Assembly (NCBI GenBank): GCA_043823435.1
Contig: JBDRAV010000003.1
Span: forward strand, 32,366 to 96,365
Origin: Candidatus Omnitrophota bacterium
GTDB taxonomy: Bacteria; Omnitrophota; Gorgyraeia; Gygaellales; Profunditerraquicolaceae
Direction: 5' to 3'
DNA length: 64,000 nucleotides
Every line of letters begins with the position of its first letter. The first letter of the stretch is position 1. The notes beneath the pieces were generated by a model, which did not search any database, had not been told where the DNA came from, and saw nothing but the letters and a program-made list of their open reading frames with translations. Both the position numbers and the translations under genes were made by a program. Positions 1,592 to 44,450 of this stretch are shown piece by piece.

Positions 1592-1666
1592 TCGGGGCGA
1601 GTGGACTTGAACCACCGACCTCAGCGTCCCGAACGCTGCGCTCTAGCCAAACTGAGCCACGCCCCG
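1592..1666 (-). tRNA. tRNA-Pro (anticodon CGG)
   Basis: Reverse complement reads CGGGGCG-TG-GCTC-AGTTTGGCTA-GAGC-G-CAGCG-TTCGGGA-CGCTG-AGGTC-GGTGG-TTCAAGT-CCACT-CGCCCCG-A. This is a full cloverleaf of 75 nt with CGG in the anticodon loop; CCA is not encoded. Confidence 0.9.
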
Positions 1667-1675
1667 TTTTTCTGT

Positions 1676-1983
1676 CTTTTACTGTCGGAAAAGCGTACTG
1701 CCCTCTCTTAACTTCTCTAGCAGTATTAGTTCCCGCGATCTTTTACTGTCGGAAAAGCGTACTGCCCTCTCTTAACTTCTCTAGCAGTACTTCATTTTTC
1801 TGTCTTTTGCTTATCGGAAAAATGATACCGCTTCTCTTTGATTCTTTAGCGGTACTACAATCCTTTATAATTACTGTCTGAAAAACGGCACTGCCTGCGA
1901 TTTACTGCTGTAGCAGTGCTTCATTTTAAATCTAGTTAGTTGCGGGAAAATGATACTTCCCCTTTTCAATTCTATAGTAGTAT
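1676..1983 (-). repeat. Five tandem hairpin units (64-65 nt period) forming the leader of tRNA-Pro
   Basis: Stems lie at 1696-1701/1720-1725, 1760-1765/1784-1789, 1826-1831/1849-1854, 1888-1894/1913-1919 and 1953-1957/1979-1983. Units 1 and 2 share 50 identical nt (1676-1725 = 1740-1789). The later units keep pairing through compensatory changes. Confidence 0.75.
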
Positions 1984-1998
1984 ATAGTTTATGTATTT

Positions 1999-2027
1999 AG
2001 TATAACAAAAATTAATGGAATTGGCAA
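1999..2027 (-). promoter_or_regulatory. Sigma70-type promoter TTGCCA-17-TATACT reading into the hairpin array and tRNA-Pro
   Basis: On the plus strand, tggcaa at 2022-2027 and agtata at 1999-2004, with an exact 17-nt spacer. It lies between the ribE stop (2066) and repeat unit 5. Confidence 0.6.
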
Positions 2028-2065
2028 TAATTACAAGTTAACATAATGTTGGCGGGTGATTTTGT

Positions 2066-2647
2066 TCAGGCGTCAACTCCGGATTTCTTGGCGAGGATAT
2101 CGAATTCAATATTGACCGTATCTGACGGGCCCTTGAACCCCAGGGTAGTATTCTTAAGGGTGTGCGGAATTACGTAAATAGCGAAAGTGCTTGCTTTTTT
2201 ATCCATGACGGTCAGGCTGATACCGTCTACAGCAACAGAACCTTTGGGCAAAATATAGCGCATGGATTTCACAGGTACGGCTATTTCAAAACAGAGATTA
2301 CCGTTAACATATCTTCTCCGCCGTATTACTCCGGTTAAATCGATATGGCCCGTGACAAAATGGCCGGAGAGCCTCTCTCCTATCTTTAAAGCGCGTTCCA
2401 GATTAACCTTCCCTTTTATCTTAAGATTCCCCAGGTTAGTAGCCTTAAGGGTCTCGGGCATAACCTCAAAGCTCACACTATCTTCTGCTTTTTCTACCAC
2501 GGTAAGGCAGGTACCGTTTACGGAAACGCTGTCGCCTTTCTTGGTATCCTGAGGTATTATTCTTGCATGTATCATCAATAAAGTAAGATTACCCCGCCTG
2601 GATATCTTTATTACTTCTCCTAATTCCTCTATTATTCCGCTGAACAT
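2066..2647 (-). CDS. ribE: Riboflavin synthase (alpha chain)
   Basis: MFSGIIEELGEV.. with two internally repeated lumazine-binding halves (..GDSVSVNGTCLTV.. and ..GSVAVDGISLTV..). Start moved to the ATG at 2645-2647; the track's GTG at 2659 lies inside the repeat element. Confidence 0.9.
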   Translation of the reverse strand: MFSGIIEELGEVIKISRRGNLTLLMIHARIIPQDTKKGDSVSVNGTCLTVVEKAEDSVSFEVMPETLKATNLGNLKIKGKVNLERALKIGERLSGHFVTGHIDLTGVIRRRRYVNGNLCFEIAVPVKSMRYILPKGSVAVDGISLTVMDKKASTFAIYVIPHTLKNTTLGFKGPSDTVNIEFDILAKKSGVDA

Positions 2648-2887
2648 AAGTGAGTGCACAATTTATGGAACGCCCCGCTACTCTAACTTAGGGTAACGGC
2701 GGGGTCCCGCCCTATATTACATGATTAGCGGGAAGTGAACATAAATTGTCTGCACGAACTTATACCTGACGCCTTGCTTTGTGGAACATAGCGTCAGGTA
2801 TTAATTCGCAGACGCTCGGAGACAGTAAAATTATGGACGCTATAACTTATTGCGCTACTTCGTAGCTCCATAAGTTATCTGCTCATT
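2648..2887. repeat. Composite mosaic element: two palindromic E1 units head to head around a central hairpin
   Basis: The left unit 2648-2760 is the AAGTGAGT.. variant and carries the 92-nt insert. The central hairpin is tacctgacgc/gcgtcaggta (2763-2772/2791-2800). The right unit 2806-2887 is inverted, with stem ataacttat/ataagttat (2842-2850/2870-2878) and terminus ctgctcatt. Together they fill the whole ribD-ribE spacer. Confidence 0.8.
2658..2749. ncRNA. Three-way-junction (TWJ) insert, copy 1 (candidate structured RNA or ssDNA element)
   Basis: Outer stem acaatttatg/cataaattgt. Hairpin CCCCGC..GCGGGG has a ~20-nt loop. Hairpin CCCGC..GCGGG has the conserved loop CTATATTACATGATTA. The junction carries GA/GA mismatches. 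Confidence 0.45.
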
Positions 2888-3974
2888 AAACATGCCCTTC
2901 TATCAGAAAGTCTTCGCCCATTCTCCTGAATCCGACTTCCTTTAATTTAAACGCTTTATCTATGCGCGCAACACCCTTGCCCATAACCGAGCTGATCGCA
3001 TCTTTTCCTCCTATGATTTTAGGACTGACAAAAAACAATACTTTATCCACGAGCCCTTCATCAAAGAGGCCTCCAATCAATGTCCCCCCGCCTTCAACAA
3101 GGATGCTGGTTATCTCAAGCTGCGCCAGCTTTTTCATCATATCTCTCAGATTTATCTGGCCTGATCTCTCCTTTACTTCCAATATCCTGGCCTTAGTGGA
3201 TAATACATTCCTATTCGCCGTCTCCTGCCCTGTTTTCACCGGTAAGGTAACGATTATTACGGAGCTATTACGGGAAAAGATACTGGTTTCTTCCGGAGTG
3301 CTCAACTGGCTGTCCACTATGATCTTAATAGGTTGTCTCCTGGAAAACCAGGCATCAAGCTTTGGATTATCTCTTAATACCGTATTCACGCCAACCATGA
3401 TCGCATCATAATGTACGCGCATCCGGTGTGCATAAAGGCGCGACACATCAGAAGTTATCCATTTCGAATTCCCGGTACGGGTTGCGATCTTCCCGTCCAG
3501 AGACTGCCCCACTTTAACCGTAACAAAAGGCATCTTGCGGGTAATATACTTAATAAAAGCTTCATTCAGTTTCTTTAATTTATCTGCAAGGAATCCCGTT
3601 TCGACCTTTATCTTCTGCGCCTTGAGTATCTTTATACCTTTACCGTTGTTGACGGGATTTGGATCAAGCATCCCCACAAAGACCCTTTTAATACCGCTCT
3701 TAATTATCTTATCTACGCATGGCGGAGTCCTCCCGAAATGCGCACATGGCTCAAGGGTCACGTAAAGATCTGCTCCTCTGGTTTGAAGCCCTGCGTCATC
3801 CAGGGCTAAAGATTCTGCATGAGGAAACCCAGCTTTATCGTGATAGCCACGGCCTATTATCCGGCCGTTCTTTACTACCACCGACCCGACGATAGGATTA
3901 GGGGAAGTCTTGTCTTTCCCTTTCAAAGCCAGCCTCAGGGCTAAATTCATAAAATATTCGTGGCCTCTAGGCAT
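2886..3974 (-). CDS. ribD: Bifunctional diaminohydroxyphosphoribosylaminopyrimidine deaminase / 5-amino-6-(5-phosphoribosylamino)uracil reductase
   Basis: N-terminal deaminase zinc motifs (FPHAE, LEPCAHFGRTPPC) plus a C-terminal RibD reductase domain; sits in rib operon context. Confidence 0.9.
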   Translation of the reverse strand: MPRGHEYFMNLALRLALKGKDKTSPNPIVGSVVVKNGRIIGRGYHDKAGFPHAESLALDDAGLQTRGADLYVTLEPCAHFGRTPPCVDKIIKSGIKRVFVGMLDPNPVNNGKGIKILKAQKIKVETGFLADKLKKLNEAFIKYITRKMPFVTVKVGQSLDGKIATRTGNSKWITSDVSRLYAHRMRVHYDAIMVGVNTVLRDNPKLDAWFSRRQPIKIIVDSQLSTPEETSIFSRNSSVIIVTLPVKTGQETANRNVLSTKARILEVKERSGQINLRDMMKKLAQLEITSILVEGGGTLIGGLFDEGLVDKVLFFVSPKIIGGKDAISSVMGKGVARIDKAFKLKEVGFRRMGEDFLIEGHV

Positions 3975-4800: not shown

Positions 4801-5213
4801 TTTTCCTTTTTTAATTTTATTTTGTCAAGGATGCCATTGACGAACTTACTTGCCTCCAGGCTTGAATATTTCTTAGCCAATTCTACCGCTTCATTAATCG
4901 ATACCTTAAACGGTATATCATCGCGGAAGACAAGCTCGAAGCACCCCATACGCAAGATATTCCTATCCACTACCGCCATACGCTTAAGCTGCCAGTTGGT
5001 CGCATATCGAGCAATATTTTCATCGATGGCGTCCTTGTTTTCGATTACACCCTTGACTAACTCGCGGGTAAAATCCCTTATCTCATCGCTTGTATCATCT
5101 TCCCTGCGTGCCTGCCAAAAATTATTCAATGATTCATTATAATTGTCGTGCGTGATATCTGTCTGGTAAAGCACCTGCAGGGCGAATTCACGTGCTAAAG
5201 TACGTTTACGCAT
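4797..5213 (-). CDS. nusB: Transcription antitermination factor NusB
   Basis: 138 aa, REFALQVLYQ.. N-terminus and all-helical NusB layout; the classic position next to ribH. Confidence 0.85.
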   Translation of the reverse strand: MRKRTLAREFALQVLYQTDITHDNYNESLNNFWQARREDDTSDEIRDFTRELVKGVIENKDAIDENIARYATNWQLKRMAVVDRNILRMGCFELVFRDDIPFKVSINEAVELAKKYSSLEASKFVNGILDKIKLKKEK

Positions 5214-5849: not shown

Positions 5850-5942
5850 ATAACTTACGAGCACGTCCCGCTATTCTCATTTGAGATAACGGCGGGATCC
5901 CGCCCGATATTGCATGATGAGCGGGAAGTGCGAGTAAGTTAT
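5850..5942. ncRNA. TWJ insert, copy 2
   Basis: Outer stem ataacttac/gtaagttat, GA/GA junction, stem GCAC/GTGC, hairpin TCCCGC..GCGGGA (T-A replaces C-G of copy 1), hairpin CCCGC..GCGGG with loop CGATATTGCATGATGA. Confidence 0.45.
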
Positions 5943-6050
5943 TGTGCTAGCTTCTTCACTTTGTTCAGAACCGTCCACGATTCCTTAAGTAAAGCGAAGG
6001 ACGATTTATGCCCCACCTTATTAAGAACTATAAAAGAGCCCAATGAACGC

Positions 6051-6141
6051 ACAACTTAGCGAGCCCCCGCTCGGCTATTTAAAGCAAATGCAAGGTCCCG
6101 CCCGATAATCACATGATTAGCGGGAAGCAAAGCTAAGTTGT
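6051..6141. ncRNA. TWJ insert, copy 4 (first hairpin degenerate)
   Basis: Outer stem acaacttagc/gctaagttgt. The second hairpin CCCGCC..GCGGG with loop CGATAATCACATGATTA is retained. Confidence 0.35.
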
Positions 6142-6192
6142 ATGCGCGAATTTACATCCTACCTTATTAAAAGCCATAAAAGGATGTTAGGT

Positions 6193-7416
6193 TCAATCTA
6201 TATCCAGATTATGACCAAGCTTCTCCTTCTTGGTCTTAAGATAATTATAATTTTCCGGGTTAGGAGCGATCTCAAGAGGAAATCTCTCAACCACCACAAG
6301 GCCATAGCCTTCCAAGCCTACAATCTTGCGGGGATTGTTCGTAAGAAGCCTGATATTCTTAAGTCCCAGGTCCGCGAGAACCTGAGCCCCTATTCCGTAA
6401 TCTCTGAGGTCTGCCTTATGCCCCAATGCTTCATTTGCCTCCACAGTATCAAGACCCTTATCCTGCAAATTATAGGCCTTTATCTTCTCCGCAAGGCCTA
6501 TGCCACGGCCCTCCTGGCTCATATAAAGAATAACTCCTTTTTTTTGACGGCCGATGATCTCCATTGCCTTATCAAGCTGCTTGCCGCAATCACAACGCAA
6601 GGACCCGAATACATCTCCGGTAAGGCATTCGGAATGCACCCGAACAAGGGTTGCAGAATTATCAAGTTTACCCATAGTAAGCGCAATATGAAAATGCTTG
6701 TGGATCAGGTCCCTGTATAGTATCAATTCGTAAGTTCCGTATTCCGTAGGAAGTATAGTCCGGGAAACCCGTTCGATCAGTTTTTCAGAACGCCTTCGGT
6801 ATTGGATAAGATCAGCTATTGAACAGATCTTAAGGCGGTGCTCCTTGGAAAATTCCAACAACTGCGGGAGCCTTGCCATCGCGCCGTTATCATTCATAAT
6901 TTCACAGATTACTGCTGCAGGATAAAGACTGGCCATCTTCATAAGATCTACGGATGCCTCGGTATGGCCTGCCCTTACCAGAACTCCTCCTTTAAGCGCC
7001 CTCAGAGGAAAGATATGACCGGGCCTGACCAAATCTACCGGTTGAGAAGCGGGATTTACTAAGACCTCTATTGTACGCGAACGGTCATAAGCAGAAATAC
7101 CTGTAGTAATGCCTTTGGCTGCATCCGCCGAAATCATCCATGCGGTAGAAAAAAGGTCTTTTCTATTATATATATCTTTGCTTTCCAGCATCGGTTGCAA
7201 AGCTAACTCCTGTAATCTTTCATCTTCCATGGGCACACAGATCAGCCCGCGACCATGCTTTGCCATGAAGTTTATATCATCCGGCCTGGCAAAAGATGCA
7301 GCCATAACCAGATCCCCTTCATTCTCGCGGTCCTCATCATCCACGACAATAACCATCTTGCCGGCCTTTAAATCTTCCAGTATTTCAGGTATATTATTAA
7401 GCATAAGTGAAGACAT
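6193..7416 (-). CDS. ribBA: Bifunctional 3,4-dihydroxy-2-butanone-4-phosphate synthase / GTP cyclohydrolase II
   Basis: DHBP synthase half (MVIVVDDEDRENEGDLV) plus GTP cyclohydrolase II half (CLTGDVFGSLRCDCG, QEGRGIGL). The true start may be the ATG at 7402-7404, because codons 1-4 lie inside the repeat. Confidence 0.9.
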   Translation of the reverse strand: MSSLMLNNIPEILEDLKAGKMVIVVDDEDRENEGDLVMAASFARPDDINFMAKHGRGLICVPMEDERLQELALQPMLESKDIYNRKDLFSTAWMISADAAKGITTGISAYDRSRTIEVLVNPASQPVDLVRPGHIFPLRALKGGVLVRAGHTEASVDLMKMASLYPAAVICEIMNDNGAMARLPQLLEFSKEHRLKICSIADLIQYRRRSEKLIERVSRTILPTEYGTYELILYRDLIHKHFHIALTMGKLDNSATLVRVHSECLTGDVFGSLRCDCGKQLDKAMEIIGRQKKGVILYMSQEGRGIGLAEKIKAYNLQDKGLDTVEANEALGHKADLRDYGIGAQVLADLGLKNIRLLTNNPRKIVGLEGYGLVVVERFPLEIAPNPENYNYLKTKKEKLGHNLDID

Positions 7417-7639
7417 AATTTATGGAGCGCCCCGCTACTACATTTTGAGATAACGGCGGGGTCCCGCACCATATTACATGATTATCGGGAAACGAACATA
7501 AATTATTTGTCTGAACTTATACCTTGCGTTTTACCTTGTAAAACGCAAGGTATTAATTCGCAGGCGCTGATAGACAGTAAAATAATAAACGCTATAACTT
7601 ATGCCGCTACTTCGTAGCTCCATAAGTTATCCGCTCATT
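7405..7639. repeat. Composite mosaic element, same architecture as 2648-2887
   Basis: Left unit with TWJ insert. Central perfect 14-bp hairpin taccttgcgtttta/taaaacgcaaggta (7520-7533/7539-7552). Inverted right unit with ataacttat/ataagttat (7594-7602/7622-7630), ending ccgctcatt. Confidence 0.8.
7415..7506. ncRNA. TWJ insert, copy 3
   Basis: Outer stem ataatttatg/cataaattat, hairpin CCCCGC..GCGGGG, hairpin CCCG..CGGG with loop ..CCATATTACATGATTAT. Confidence 0.45.
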
Positions 7640-7670
7640 AAAAAAAATAAACCCGAAGATAATCTTCGGG
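7640..7670 (-). terminator. Intrinsic terminator, expression platform of the FMN riboswitch
   Basis: Minus strand reads CCCGAAG-AUUAU-CUUCGGG followed by UUUAUUUUUUUU. The 5' arm is complementary to the riboswitch P1 5' strand (UAAUCUUCGGGG), giving the usual antiterminator alternative. Confidence 0.8.
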
Positions 7671-7685
7671 CGATAGAAAAACTTA

Positions 7686-7885
7686 TTAATCCTCTCCTAT
7701 CTGGACTATCCACCCAATTCAATTTGATGAATCGGTGTCCGCTGCTGCGGCACCCGATCCTATCTGATGAATCGGTGTCCGCTGCTGCGGAACCATCGGC
7801 CCCGGAATGTCACCGGGTCTGCCCCATTTTGTGGGGCTCGCGGGCTCTACCGCCGGTAAGGAATTCCACCTTCCCCGAAGATTAA
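7686..7885 (-). promoter_or_regulatory. FMN riboswitch (RFN element), unusually long
   Basis: Minus strand reads CUUCGGGGAAGGUGGAAUUCCUUACCGGCGGUAGAGCCCGCGAGCC..GGUGACAUUCCGGGGCCGAUGGU..AUAGUCCAGAUAGGAGAGG. This matches the conserved RFN core. P1 is UUAAUCUUC/GAGGAUUAA. It lies upstream of ribBA. Confidence 0.9.
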
Positions 7886-7896
7886 TGTATTTATAA

Positions 7897-35484: not shown

Positions 35485-35585
35485 TTAAATGAGCGCATAA
35501 CTTACGGAGCGCGAAGTGCGACGTAAGTTATTTGCGCGAATTTACACCCTTCCTTATTAATAAATATAAAAGGGAGTTAGGTTTA
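35485..35585 (+). repeat. E1 plus module B element filling the rho-rpmE spacer
   Basis: TTAAATGAGCGCATAACTTACGGAGCGCGAAGTGCGACGTAAGTTATTTGCGCGAATTTAC, then the hairpin CCCT..AGGG with loop TCCTTATTAATAAATATAAA. Ends ttaggttta on the rho stop. Confidence 0.8.
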
Positions 35586-41529: not shown

Positions 41530-41814
41530 TTAAATGAGCAGACAACTTACGGAGCGTTAGCGAAGTAAGTTGTAGCGAAGCGTCTGCGAATTTACACCAT
41601 ACTTTATTAATAACTATAAGCGGTGCTAAATGAGCCCACAACTTACGAACACGCCCCGCTCCTCTTAACTAGAATAAAGGCGGGGTCCAGCCTCTATCTT
41701 ACATAATCAGCTGGAAGTGCGAGTAAGTTGTAGCGAAGCGTCTGCGAATTTACCCCACAGCTTATTAATAATCACAAAAGGGGGATAGGATTGATGCCTA
41801 CAACTTACATTCAC
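41530..41814 (+). repeat. Mosaic element string downstream of acsB (E1, module B, E1+TWJ, module B, partial E1)
   Basis: AAATGAGC at 41532 and 41628. Stems acaacttac/gtaagttgt at 41542-41550/41565-41573 and 41638-41646/41723-41731. GCGAATTTAC at about 41586 and 41745. Confidence 0.8.
41638..41731. ncRNA. TWJ insert, copy 5
   Basis: Hairpin CCCCGC..GCGGGG. The second hairpin changes from CCCGC/GCGGG to CCAGC/GCTGG, a double compensatory change. Loop TCTATCTTACATAATCA. Confidence 0.45.
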
Positions 41815-44008: not shown

Positions 44009-44335
44009 TAAATGAGCCCACAACTTACGGAACAACGTGAACGTAAGTTGTTTGGGCGAATTTACCTCCCACCTTATTAATAAACAATAAAAGGAGGATA
44101 AGTTATATCCCATAACTTACGGAACGCAAGTGAACGTAAGTTGTTTGGGCGAATTTACCTCCCACCTTATTAATAAACAATAAAAGGAGGATAAGTTATA
44201 TCCCACAACTTACGGAACAACGTGAACGTAAGTTGTTTGGGCGAATTTACCTCCCACCTTATTAATAAACAATAAAAGGAGGATAAGTTATATCCCACAA
44301 CTTACGGAACGCAAGTGAACGTAAGTTGTTTGGGC
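44009..44335 (+). repeat. Tandem array, 3.5 units of 92/93 bp (E1 hairpin plus module B hairpin), ABAB pattern
   Basis: Units start at 44017, 44109, 44202 and 44294. Units 1 and 3 have loop AACAACGTGAA; units 2 and 4 have AACGCAAGTGAA. The last unit is truncated after TTTGGGC. Confidence 0.9.
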
Positions 44336-44450
44336 TAGTTCTTCGCTTTGCTTCGGAATCATCCGCAATCACCAAATATAGCAACGGATGAATTTACTTC
44401 GCTTGCTTCCAAGCATTTTGGATGCGAAGCAAATCCAAGACTCTAAGCTT
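44336..44450 (+). repeat. Module C copy plus terminal hairpin
   Basis: ctagttcttcgctttgcttcggaatCATCCGcaatcaccaaatatagcaaCGGATGaattta parallels 5947-6010, with CGTCC/GGACG replaced by CATCCG/CGGATG. It is followed by the hairpin CTTCGC..TCCAA-GCATT-TTGGA..GCGAAG. Confidence 0.65.

What the first reader, a model, noticed from the sequence alone, without database searches (positions are those of the whole stretch)
1667..2027. Five hairpin units with a 64-65-nt period form the leader of tRNA-Pro
Five tandem units sit between a canonical promoter (TTGCCA-17-TATACT, minus strand, 1999-2027) and the 5' end of tRNA-Pro (1666). Read on the plus strand, each unit has:
- GGAAAA followed by 2-3 nt
- a 5-7 bp stem
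- a 17-19 nt pyrimidine-rich loop ending YTNTA
- the return stem, then a T-rich tract

Units 1 and 2 share 50 identical nt. Units 3-5 have diverged but keep the helix through paired substitutions: TACTGC/GCAGTA, then TACCGC/GCGGTA, then GCACTGC/GCAGTGC, then ATACT/AGTAT. That pattern indicates selection on structure rather than on sequence.

As transcribed (minus strand), each unit is a hairpin with a purine-rich loop (for example UAGAGAAGUUAAGAGAGG) followed by UUUUCC. This gives five terminator-like or sRNA-like modules in series in front of a tRNA. I know of no described tRNA leader built this way.

The unit also shares TTTTACTGTC..GCGT.CTGC with the tail module of the dispersed element family, so it may be a locally amplified relative of that family.
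Basis: partly seen in the sequence, partly recalled or inferred. Interest (0 to 1): 0.6.

Follow-up and report, generated by a model that had tools for sequence, protein, structure and literature searches.

The report
Modular two-hairpin leader before tRNA-Pro
In this uncultivated Omnitrophota bacterium, the tRNA-Pro(CGG) gene follows a ~326-nt leader made of five copies of a conserved two-hairpin RNA module; relatives carry 0-5 copies at the same spot, no such tRNA leader has been described, and its function is still unknown.

Summary
Five direct units (period 64-65 nt, window 1667-1985, minus strand) lie between a near-consensus extended -10 promoter (1999-2027) and tRNA-Pro(CGG) (1592-1666).

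The array is not a local oddity. The ribE / promoter / tRNA-Pro(CGG) arrangement is general in Omnitrophota. Of 33 leaders examined, 12 carry 1-5 copies of the same module, 2 carry a divergent version and 19 carry none.

Covariance models find the module only in this leader, on the tRNA strand. They find it nowhere else in the 64-kb window or in ~540 kb of related DNA.

Each unit forms two abutting hairpins, not one:
- Hairpin 1 has 7-8 bp and a 17-19-nt purine-rich loop.
- Helix 2 pairs the U-run (the "UUUUCC") with an A-run at the end of the unit, directly in front of the tRNA 5' end.

Both helices covary. Some loops are far better conserved between genomes than fourfold-degenerate sites.

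There is no Rfam match. The unit is neither a canonical terminator nor a detectable member of the window's dispersed repeat family.

The best reading is a selected, modular pre-tRNA leader. It probably tunes maturation or transcription of tRNA-Pro(CGG) in cis. A trans-acting role for the released leader is a serious rival.

The parts
2035..2046 (-). Conserved block TTATGTTAACTT (half of an inverted repeat AAGTTAnnnTAACTT) just upstream of the -35 hexamer.
   Evidence: Read. The same block sits upstream of the promoter in L001, L002, L003, L030, L037, L038, L051, L053, L055, L060 and L106.
1999..2027 (-). Promoter: -35 TTGCCA (2027-2022), 17-nt spacer, extended -10 TGtTATACT (2007-1999). The transcription start is inferred near 1992.
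   Evidence: 10 of 12 matches, TG present. The same promoter is found in all 30 leaders tabulated. The start site is inferred, not measured.
1921..1985 (-). Unit 5, closest to the promoter. Hairpin 1 arms are ATACU 1983-1979 and AGUAU 1957-1953 (5 bp, decayed). Helix 2 is UCAUUUU 1953-1947 with AAAAUGA 1927-1921.
   Evidence: Model hits; helix 2. Its tail matches L001e at 30/32 nt.
1857..1920 (-). Unit 4. Hairpin 1 is GCACUGC 1919-1913 with GCAGUGC 1894-1888, with an 18-nt loop. The U-run is 1885-1881. Helix 2 is poor: this unit has no A-run.
   Evidence: hairpin 1 at -14.8 kcal/mol. Its loop matches L001d at 16/18 and L003a at 17/18.
1792..1856 (-). Unit 3. Hairpin 1 is GUACCGC 1855-1849 with GCGGUAU 1831-1825, with a 17-nt loop. 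Helix 2 is UCAUUUUUC 1825-1817 with GAAAAAUGA 1800-1792 (9 bp).
   Evidence: The MFE structure is the two abutting hairpins, with z = -4.35 against shuffles.
1727..1791 (-). Unit 2. Hairpin 1 is GUACUGC 1790-1784 with GCAGUAC 1765-1759, with an 18-nt loop UAGAGAAGUUAAGAGAGG. The U-run is 1756-1753. The tail GAUCGCGGGAAC pairs only partly with it.
   Evidence: Identical to unit 1 over 51 nt.
1667..1726 (-). Unit 1, closest to the tRNA. Hairpin 1 is UACUGC 1725-1720 with GCAGUA 1701-1696. The U-run is 1692-1689. The A-run GAAAAA 1672-1667 ends at position -1 of the tRNA.
1592..1666 (-). tRNA-Pro, anticodon CGG. CCA is not encoded.
   Evidence: ARAGORN; Rfam RF00005 at 61.5 bits.

Best explanation
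The five units are a lineage-specific, modular, structured 5' leader of the tRNA-Pro(CGG) precursor.

How it is made:
- Transcription starts at the conserved extended -10 promoter (about position 1992) and reads through roughly 326 nt of leader into the tRNA.
- RNase P then cuts between A1667 and C1666.

Structure of each ~64-nt module, which folds into two abutting hairpins:
- Hairpin 1 has 7-8 bp and is GC-rich at its base, with a 17-19-nt purine-rich, C-poor loop.
- Helix 2 forms when the 4-6 U directly after hairpin 1 pair with an A-run at the end of the module.
- In the module next to the tRNA, helix 2 covers leader positions -1 to about -8 and may extend to +1..+3.

Preferred mechanism (inferred):
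- The leader acts in cis on the supply of mature tRNA-Pro(CGG).
- Helix 2 masks the proximal leader that RNase P must bind as a single strand, which slows 5' maturation.
- Each hairpin plus U-run may also pause or prematurely release some polymerases.
- The conserved loops are docking sites for an unidentified factor that sets how strongly this happens.

Origin: modules are gained and lost by tandem duplication and deletion (0-5 per genome).

Shown here: the anatomy, the conservation, the covariation and the restriction to this locus. Inferred: transcription, RNase P cleavage and any effect on processing or termination.
For: Position and strand:
- The promoter and the tRNA are conserved in every leader seen, and the modules always lie between them on the tRNA strand.
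- The copy numbers seen are 0, 1, 2, 3 and 5.

Structure:
- Hairpin 1: 6 of 8 pairs show double changes; 87.8% of cells are paired versus 76.8% in shuffles and at most 63% when the partner is slid.
- Both helices on the model alignment: 12 of 15 pairs show double changes; 0 of 500 shuffles reach the observed value.
- Helix 2 variants: UCAUUUUUC/GAAAAAUGA, CCGUUUUGC/GCAAAACGG, CCGUUUUUG/CAAAAACGG, CCGUUUUCC/GGAAAACGG. In a partner-permutation test, 1 of 2000 permutations did as well.
- More distant loci have UGAUUUAC/GUAAAUCA and UGAUUUUC/GAAAAUCA abutting the tRNA.
- RNAfold alone returns the two-hairpin fold for most units.

Selection on sequence:
- Loop 1 of unit 4 is 16/18 and 17/18 identical to units in L001 and L003.
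- The tail of unit 5 is 30/32 identical to L001e.
- Fourfold-degenerate sites of ribE/ribD are only 41-60% identical between the same genomes.

Locus specificity: there are no hits elsewhere in the window with filters off or in about 540 kb of relatives.

Enzymology: pairing of the proximal leader with distal leader sequence can change RNase P rates by orders of magnitude. A stem-loop 2 nt from the site costs about 10-fold. E. coli leaders are only 2-52 nt long (PMC10731613).
Against: - No transcript data are available.
- Only the module next to the tRNA can touch the RNase P site. A pure processing model therefore does not explain why distal units, such as unit 4, keep their loop sequences, or why up to five copies are kept.
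- Close relatives do without any module (L002, L106), so the effect is dispensable.
- Module number does not track CCG codon use (rho = 0.07, p = 0.70).
- CCG makes up 34% of proline codons in the window, which argues against five efficient terminators in front of this tRNA.
- The extra length of helix 2 next to a tRNA (8.5 versus 6.5 bp) comes only from CCG/CGG pairs, and their CC also belongs to hairpin 1.
- G.U versus A.C counts do not confirm the strand on their own (11 versus 16).
- No binding factor has been identified.
Confidence: 0.4

Rival explanations
1. Trans-acting leader RNA. The strong tRNA promoter and RNase P serve only to produce and release a stable multi-hairpin RNA. Its 17-19-nt purine-rich loops bind, or act as a sponge for, a protein or a complementary RNA. 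Copy number sets the dose.
For: - The loop sequences of particular unit types are conserved far above the fourfold-site baseline, even in units distant from the tRNA.
- Up to ten loops sit on one transcript.
- Helix 2 hides the AU-rich single strands and would stabilise the released RNA.
- Unit types are shared between genomes even though their order is shuffled.
- From my own knowledge, spacers of tRNA precursors can act in trans: the 3'ETS-leuZ sponge in E. coli.
Against: - No partner was found.
- The loops have no universal motif; I saw GGA in about 6 of 26 units by eye.
- The module is never found away from the tRNA-Pro leader.
- Many relatives lack it.
Confidence: 0.3
2. Serial weak intrinsic terminators or attenuators. 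Each hairpin plus U-run releases a fraction of polymerases, perhaps stabilised by a loop-binding protein. The array would then be a multi-step gate on transcription from the tRNA promoter and on read-through from the rib operon into the tRNA and downstream genes.
For: - UUU directly after the stem is invariant in all 26 units, and the U-run is 4-6 nt long.
- The stems are GC-rich at the base, with a mean hairpin free energy of -11.7 kcal/mol.
- There is no terminator between the ribE stop codon (2066) and the promoter.
Against: - The loops have 17-19 nt, against 3-8 nt in canonical terminators.
- The scan finds no terminator-like site on the minus strand here.
- The genome's clear terminator, behind the FMN riboswitch at 7671-7651, has 9 bp, a 3-nt loop and a long U tract.
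- The U-run is followed by CC and is paired to a covarying A-run, which points to selection on the read-through RNA.
- The tRNA behind the array reads 34% of proline codons.
Confidence: 0.15
3. Neutral or selfish minisatellite. A leader hairpin, possibly derived from the genome's dispersed intergenic elements, expanded by replication slippage or unequal recombination. It persists without any function of its own.
For: - Copy number varies from 0 to 5 between related genomes, and 19 of 33 leaders lack the module.
- Units 1 and 2 are a recent duplication, identical over 51 nt.
- The order of unit types is shuffled between genomes.
- The unit shares the 10-mer TTTTACTGTC with the dispersed family, and one weak model hit falls on a family-like element in L049.
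Against: - Two helices are kept by compensatory changes across genomes whose RibE proteins are only 57-76% identical.
- Loop sequences are 83-94% identical where fourfold-degenerate sites are 41-60% identical.
- Loop length and the UUU are invariant.
- The models detect no dispersed copy in the window.
Confidence: 0.08
4. The functional strand is the plus strand, antisense to the tRNA. The units would then be hairpins with pyrimidine-rich loops, acting as antisense RNAs or as terminators of transcription coming from downstream.
For: - A hairpin is a hairpin on both strands, and plus-strand unit folds have z-scores of -1.2 to -2.9.
- A.C/C.A cells (16) are not rarer than G.U cells (11) in the model alignment.
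Against: - The only conserved promoter points along the minus strand.
- All neighbouring genes in the window and in relatives are on the tRNA strand.
- The models score the plus strand at E = 0.34 at best.
- On the plus strand the U-rich run starts about 5 nt after the stem.
Confidence: 0.03

Closest known systems
Ordinary bacterial pre-tRNA 5' leaders (5' external transcribed spacers) removed by RNase P
   Same: Both lie between the promoter and the mature 5' end of a monocistronic tRNA gene. Both have an A/U-rich sequence directly upstream of the cleavage site.
   Different: E. coli leaders are 2-52 nt long (PMC10731613). This one has about 326 nt, is built from repeated modules with two covarying helices each, and varies from 0 to 5 modules between related genomes.
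Leader stem-loops and leader-leader pairings that slow RNase P (model polycistronic and monocistronic pre-tRNAs reviewed in PMC10731613)
   Same: Helix 2 pairs the proximal leader (-1 to about -8) with distal leader sequence. This is the kind of structure reported to lower kcat/Km by 10-fold up to orders of magnitude.
   Different: No kinetic data exist for this leader. Here the structure is a conserved, repeated module with large sequence-conserved loops, rather than an incidental hairpin.
Intrinsic (Rho-independent) terminators and terminator-based attenuators
   Same: Both have a GC-rich stem followed within 1-3 nt by a run of U.
   Different: The loop has 17-19 nt and the U-run only 4-6 nt, followed by CC. 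The U-run is base-paired to a downstream A-run. The units lie in front of the gene product, up to five in series. My degenerate unit pattern pulled out ordinary long-stem terminators in other phyla, which shows how these units differ from them.
tRNA-spacer-derived regulatory RNA (3'ETS-leuZ sponge of E. coli; from my own knowledge, not checked here)
   Same: It is a by-product of tRNA precursor processing that could have a function of its own.
   Different: That RNA is a single 3' spacer that binds Hfq-dependent sRNAs. This is a 5' leader of repeated modules with no known partner.
Type III antitoxin arrays (ToxI-like) and multi-hairpin sponge RNAs (CsrB/RsmZ type); from my own knowledge
   Same: Both are driven by a promoter and consist of tandem or serial structured RNA units, whose copy number could set a dose.
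   Different: There is no toxin gene: a tRNA and a 558-aa protein without Pfam hits follow the array, and the same neighbours occur with zero units. The unit has 64 nt rather than about 36. Most loops lack the GGA motif.

Membership tests
Pre-tRNA 5' leader (5' ETS) | Lies between the promoter and the mature 5' end of the tRNA, on the same strand. | tested here: met
   Promoter at 2027-1999, units at 1985-1667 and tRNA at 1666-1592, all on the minus strand. The same order holds in every relative examined.
Pre-tRNA 5' leader (5' ETS) | Co-transcribed with the tRNA and removed by RNase P. | not testable with these tools
   No transcript or cleavage data are available. This is inferred from the conserved promoter and from the absence of any other promoter-like site between the units and the tRNA.
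Intrinsic terminator | GC-rich stem of at least 5 bp followed within 0-2 nt by a U-rich tract. | tested here: inconclusive
   The stems have 7-8 bp and a mean free energy of -11.7 kcal/mol. The U-run has 4 nt in 10 units, 5 nt in 15 and 6 nt in 1, and starts 1-3 nt after the stem. That is shorter than the 5-of-8 T rule of the scan, which reports no minus-strand site here.
Intrinsic terminator | Short loop (3-8 nt). | tested here: not met
   The loops have 17-19 nt, and this length is conserved across 26 units from 11 loci. The genome's own riboswitch terminator has a 3-nt loop.
Intrinsic terminator | Lies at the end of a transcription unit. | tested here: not met
   The units lie between a promoter and its tRNA.
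Dispersed intergenic repeat family of this window (2645-2890, 5864-6193, 7402-7642, 41564-41791, 44017-44340) | Detectable sequence or structure similarity to the family's members. | tested here: not met
   Only a 10-mer plus two tetramers are shared, on the opposite DNA strand in the dispersed copies. Models R1 and R2 with filters off give no hit on any dispersed copy at E <= 10. One weak hit (E = 0.004) falls on a family-like element in L049.
REP/MITE-like dispersed repeats | Many copies scattered over the genome. | tested here: not met
   All hits lie in the tRNA-Pro leader, both in the 64-kb window and in about 540 kb of relatives. Whole genomes could not be searched.
CRISPR array | Short conserved repeats separated by unique spacers of similar length. 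| tested here: not met
   The whole 64-nt unit is homologous from copy to copy, and there are no unique spacers.
Type III toxin-antitoxin (ToxI-like array) | The repeat array is followed by a terminator and a toxin endoribonuclease gene. | tested here: not met
   A tRNA and a 558-aa protein without Pfam hits follow the array. The same neighbours occur with 0 units.
Any Rfam 15 family | Score at or near a family's gathering threshold. | tested here: not met
   Only the tRNA and the FMN riboswitch pass in the window. Nothing relevant appears at E <= 10 in 1500-2100 or at E <= 1 in seven related loci.
CsrB/RsmZ-type sponge | GGA motifs in most hairpin loops. | tested here: not met
   I saw GGA in loop 1 of about 6 of 26 units by eye on alignment A3.

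The most novel reading that the evidence does not exclude
The two-hairpin module, together with the tRNA-5'-end-mimicking 'P' module that accompanies it in relatives, could be a new class of riboregulator dedicated to a single tRNA isoacceptor. It would work in one of two ways:
- as a factor-responsive gate on transcription and RNase P maturation of tRNA-Pro(CGG);
- as a multi-copy regulatory RNA made from a tRNA promoter and released by RNase P.

In either case the conserved 17-19-nt loops would be the recognition surfaces, and copy number would be the evolutionary tuning knob.
Probability: 0.3. Interest if true: 0.75.

Novelty: new variant of a known kind. Interest (0 to 1): 0.58.

Why it matters
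Bacterial tRNA genes are usually thought to be controlled at the promoter, and their short leaders are treated as disposable. This leader is different in three ways:
- It is six times longer than the longest E. coli leader.
- It is built from a structured module that has been kept under selection across a candidate phylum.
- It sits exactly where it can mask the RNase P site of one codon-specific tRNA.

If it regulates maturation, it would be a clear case of control of a single isoacceptor encoded in the leader. If the released leader acts in trans, it adds a new source of regulatory RNA.

Either way it is a new, well-supported RNA motif for an uncultivated phylum that has almost no described non-coding RNAs. 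It also comes with a natural allelic series (0, 1, 2, 3 and 5 modules) that makes experiments straightforward.

Tried and rejected
1. Scan of genome contigs with a degenerate unit pattern. It gave 18 single hits, none in Omnitrophota, all ordinary long-stem bidirectional terminators. The window's genome is evidently not in that collection, so genome-wide dispersal could not be tested.
2. Rfam at the gathering and E-value thresholds, on the window and on seven relatives. Nothing was found.
3. G.U versus A.C counts to prove the transcribed strand. The result, 11 versus 16, is not informative, partly because rows of the UCA/UGA type are out of register.
4. Module number versus CCG codon use. There is no correlation.
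5. Leader-peptide attenuation. AUG codons arise from the AAAAUGA strand of helix 2 in the window (MKYC*, and a 17-codon ORF with one CCG). They have no Shine-Dalgarno sequence and are absent in relatives, whose A-run is followed by CGG. Rejected.
6. H-type pseudoknot between the 3' part of loop 1 and the U-run. The connecting loop would have 1 nt across a 7-bp stem, and the complementarity is absent in many units. Rejected by inspection.
7. Specifier-like CCG after the U-run pairing with the CGG anticodon. It is present in only about half the units. Rejected.
8. PyrR, TRAP or CsrA-like loop motifs. None is universal, and there is no Rfam PyrR hit.
9. Look-up of the window's own RibE protein to obtain the MAG accession. 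It is not on record.
10. Framing the unit from hairpin 1 to the A-run gives z = -3.6 to -4.4.
Full report
**1. What is in the window**

On the minus strand the window carries a riboflavin operon:
- FMN riboswitch at 7887-7757
- ribH at 5851-5360
- nusB, a PHP-domain gene and ribD
- ribE at 2659-2066.

About 40 nt after the ribE stop codon lies a sigma-70-type promoter: TTGCCA, a 17-nt spacer, then TATACT, with the TG of an extended -10 (2027-1999). tRNA-Pro(CGG) occupies 1666-1592. A membrane-protein gene starts near 1544 and runs off the window.

Between the promoter and the tRNA there is no ORF of note. Instead there are five direct repeats with a period of 64-65 nt. Units 1 and 2 are identical over 51 nt. 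The others are 61-85% identical to them.

**2. The organism, and whether the array occurs elsewhere**

RibE is 100% identical to a protein of a Candidatus Omnitrophota MAG. The nearest other relatives are 70-78% identical.

I collected orthologous loci through RibE homologues and one metagenome scan. They show that ribE, this promoter and tRNA-Pro(CGG) form a general Omnitrophota arrangement.
- The promoter TTGnnA-N17-(TG)nTATACT is present in all 30 leaders tabulated.
- The distance from ribE to the tRNA ranges from 79 to 1675 nt.

What fills the leader is optional and modular:
- Some genomes have nothing between the promoter and the tRNA (L002, L050, L051, L053, L060, L106, L108).
- Some have a DUF72-like ORF.
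- Some have a second kind of structured module, which I call P (section 8).
- Twelve loci have 1-5 copies of the window's unit: window 5, L001 5, L003 2, L027 2, L030 3, L031 2 plus one divergent copy, L049 3, and one each in L032, L036, L038, L040 and L104.
- L035 and L055 have a more divergent version.

The array appears in independent NCBI, JGI and Logan assemblies, so it is not an assembly artefact.

**3. Locus specificity**

I built two covariance models: R1 for hairpin 1 and R2 for both helices.

With filters off, each finds exactly five units in the window, all on the minus strand at 1662-1985. Nothing else in the 64 kb scores better than E = 0.3, and the only other hit below E = 0.9 is the antisense strand of the array itself.

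Over about 540 kb of Omnitrophota loci, every strong hit lies between the promoter and tRNA-Pro, on the tRNA strand. The three weak hits are:
- a degenerate extra unit in the L031 leader;
- a chance hit in L079;
- one element in L049 that belongs to the dispersed intergenic family.

A degenerate-pattern scan of the reference-genome collection returned only ordinary terminators from other phyla. Whole-genome dispersal therefore remains untested.

**4. Structure**

Hairpin 1 has 7-8 bp (consensus GGUACCGN/NCGGUACC; in the window, RYACYGC/GCRGURY). It covaries across genomes:
- 6 of 8 pairs show double changes.
- 87.8% of cells are paired, against 76.8% in column shuffles and at most 63% when partners are slid.

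The new finding is a second helix. The spacer plus U-run directly after hairpin 1 pairs with the A-run at the end of the unit. The flanking bases covary:

| 5' strand | 3' strand | Where |
|---|---|---|
| UCAUUUUUC | GAAAAAUGA | window unit 3 |
| UCAUUUU | AAAAUGA | window unit 5, L001e |
| UCAUUUUC | GAAAAUGA | L001a |
| CCGUUUUGC | GCAAAACGG | L030H3, L049H3 |
| CCGUUUUUG | CAAAAACGG | L032 |
| CCGUUUUCC | GGAAAACGG | L038 |
| UGAUUUAC | GUAAAUCA | L035 |
| UGAUUUUC | GAAAAUCA | L055 |

Three results support the helix:
- Swapping 3' partners between units shortens it; 1 of 2000 permutations does as well as the real pairing.
- On the model-based alignment, 12 of 15 pairs in the two helices show double changes, and 0 of 500 shuffles reach that value. 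That alignment is fitted to the model and leans towards it.
- RNAfold alone returns two abutting hairpins for most units. For correctly framed units, z is -3.6 to -4.4.

The UUUUCC is therefore not a free tail. There is no linker between hairpin 1 and helix 2. The 3' strand of helix 2 runs straight into the next module or into the tRNA.

In units followed by the tRNA or by a P module, both of which begin CGG, helix 2 can extend by CCG/CGG into positions +1 to +3. This accounts for its greater length there (8.5 versus 6.5 bp, p = 0.002). The CC is shared with hairpin 1, however, and without those pairs the difference disappears.

**5. Selection on sequence**

Window units are most similar to units in other genomes, not to their neighbours:
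- unit 5 to L001e, identity 0.73;
- unit 4 to L001d, 0.72;
- unit 2 to L003a, 0.80.

The order of unit types differs between genomes. Unit 5's type is first in the window and last in L001.

Loop 1 of unit 4 matches L001d at 16/18 and L003a at 17/18. The tail and loop 2 of unit 5 match L001e at 30/32. Fourfold-degenerate sites of ribE and ribD are only 55-60% identical to L001 and 41-47% identical to L003.

Loop length (17-19 nt) and the invariant UUU are kept in all 26 units. The arrays are therefore old. Particular loops are under sequence constraint, and duplication (units 1 and 2) and reshuffling continue.

**6. What it is not**

- Not a canonical terminator. The loops are far too large, and the scan finds no terminator-like site on the minus strand. 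The genome's evident terminator behind the FMN riboswitch (7671-7651) has 9 bp, a 3-nt loop and a long U tract.
- Probably not an efficient block to transcription. CCG, the codon this tRNA reads, makes up 34% of proline codons in the window. Five efficient terminators in front of this tRNA are unlikely.
- Not in Rfam. Not a CRISPR array, and not a ToxI-like array, because no toxin gene follows it.
- Not a detectable member of the window's dispersed family. The shared TTTTACTGTC is non-random: there are 4 exact copies in the window, 2 in the units and 2 in dispersed elements. The dispersed copies carry it on the other DNA strand.

Two full-text searches aimed at such leaders found no described tRNA leader of this kind.

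**7. How it most likely works**

Shown: position, strand, modularity, two covarying helices, loop conservation and restriction to this locus.

Inferred: transcription from about 1992, giving a ~326-nt leader that RNase P removes.

A review of RNase P specificity (PMC10731613) states three relevant points:
- E. coli leaders are 2-52 nt long.
- A stable stem-loop 2 nt from the site lowers the rate about 10-fold.
- Pairing of the proximal leader with distal leader sequence can change rates by orders of magnitude.

Helix 2 of the tRNA-proximal unit is exactly such a pairing. My preferred mechanism is therefore cis control of tRNA-Pro(CGG) supply:
- Helix 2 masks the RNase P site.
- Each hairpin plus U-run may pause or release some polymerases.
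- The loops would dock an unknown factor.

I put about 0.85 on 'a selected, co-transcribed, structured leader RNA' and about 0.4 on this particular mechanism.

The main weakness is that only the last unit can touch RNase P, yet distal units keep their loop sequences. That favours the rival in which the released leader acts in trans as a multi-site binder (about 0.3). Serial weak termination as the main function gets about 0.15. A neutral satellite gets about 0.08, and a functional plus strand about 0.03.

The leader is A-rich and C-poor on the transcribed strand (C 16%, against 19.8% for the whole minus strand). This fits an untranslated RNA that has to escape Rho, though the difference is modest.

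**8. The P module**

In many relatives the leader also carries a ~50-nt P module. It begins with the tRNA's own first 14 nt (CGGGGCGUGGCUCA). A covarying hairpin follows (UCCGCC/GGCGGA, UCCUCC/GGAGGA, UCCCC/GGGGA). It ends in an invariant UUUCGCCACG that pairs back onto CGUGGC. It has no Rfam match.

P alternates with the two-hairpin module in L030 and L031, and it reproduces the A-run|CGG junction. The window has no P module. The tail of unit 2 (GAUCGCGGGAAC) may be a remnant of one.

The tRNA-Pro(CGG) leader of Omnitrophota is thus a hotspot for gain, loss and reshuffling of at least two structured RNA modules.

**9. Verdict**

- The feature is a new, well-supported RNA motif: a new variant of a known kind (a structured pre-tRNA leader). 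Its function is unproven.
- Interest is moderately high.

Noticed in passing
L026:4640-4702, L031:4725-4772 and 4836-4884, L038:4711-4771, L047, L063, L041, L028, L024 (not present in the window): A second conserved leader module ('P'). It starts with the first 14 nt of tRNA-Pro itself (CGGGGCGUGGCUCA). A covarying hairpin follows, then an invariant UUUCGCCACG that pairs back to CGUGGC. It has no Rfam match. In the MFE fold of L026, its CGGGGCG competes for the 3' acceptor strand of the tRNA.
   Followed up: partly
window 2645-2890, 5864-6193, 7402-7642, 35524-35583, 41564-41791, 44017-44340: A dispersed intergenic element family lying between minus-strand genes, including a 3.5 x 93-nt tandem array at 44017-44340. 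Each element has a long-stem hairpin plus a CCUCC...GGAGG hairpin. Copies also sit inside the tRNA-Pro leaders of L104 and L027. One copy in L049 (7282-7352) sequesters a Shine-Dalgarno sequence just before an ATG.
   Followed up: partly
window 2035-2046 (minus strand); same position in L001, L002, L003, L030, L037, L038, L051, L053, L055, L060, L106: A conserved block TTATGTTAACTT, part of an inverted repeat AAGTTAnnnTAACTT, lies directly upstream of the -35 of the tRNA-Pro promoter. It could be an operator or an UP-like element.
   Followed up: no
L028, L033, L034, L035, L054, L102 (between the promoter and tRNA-Pro): In six loci a ~240-aa ORF (MKQIFIGTSGWSY..., which I take to be DUF72-like from memory; no Pfam scan was run) sits between the conserved promoter and the tRNA. 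There the tRNA would be cut out of an mRNA 3' region.
   Followed up: no
window 7711-7790: A 40-nt tandem duplication (2 copies, 90% identical) overlaps the 3' end of the FMN riboswitch aptamer (7757-7887, minus strand) and lies upstream of its terminator (7671-7651).
   Followed up: no
L104:3855-5444: A large serine recombinase gene (Resolvase/Recombinase/Zn_ribbon_recom) lies on the opposite strand and overlaps the annotated 3' end of tRNA-Pro (3844-3920). L002 has a tyrosine integrase about 3.4 kb downstream. This tRNA may also serve as an integration site.
   Followed up: no
L105, L107, L004, L005 (contig ends): Several metagenome contigs of relatives end within 50-160 nt after ribE, or inside the first module. 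This is consistent with assemblies breaking in the repeat array, so copy numbers in short-read MAGs may be underestimates.
   Followed up: no
L009, L012, L013, L014, L021, L022, L023 (Paenibacillus/Bacillus): The degenerate unit pattern hit a conserved bidirectional terminator, AAAAAAGCACCGC..GCGGTGCTTTTCGGTTA, followed by a conserved sequence (CTTACGCGTTGATTTTCTCTT) in several Paenibacillus genomes. It is unrelated to the finding.
   Followed up: no
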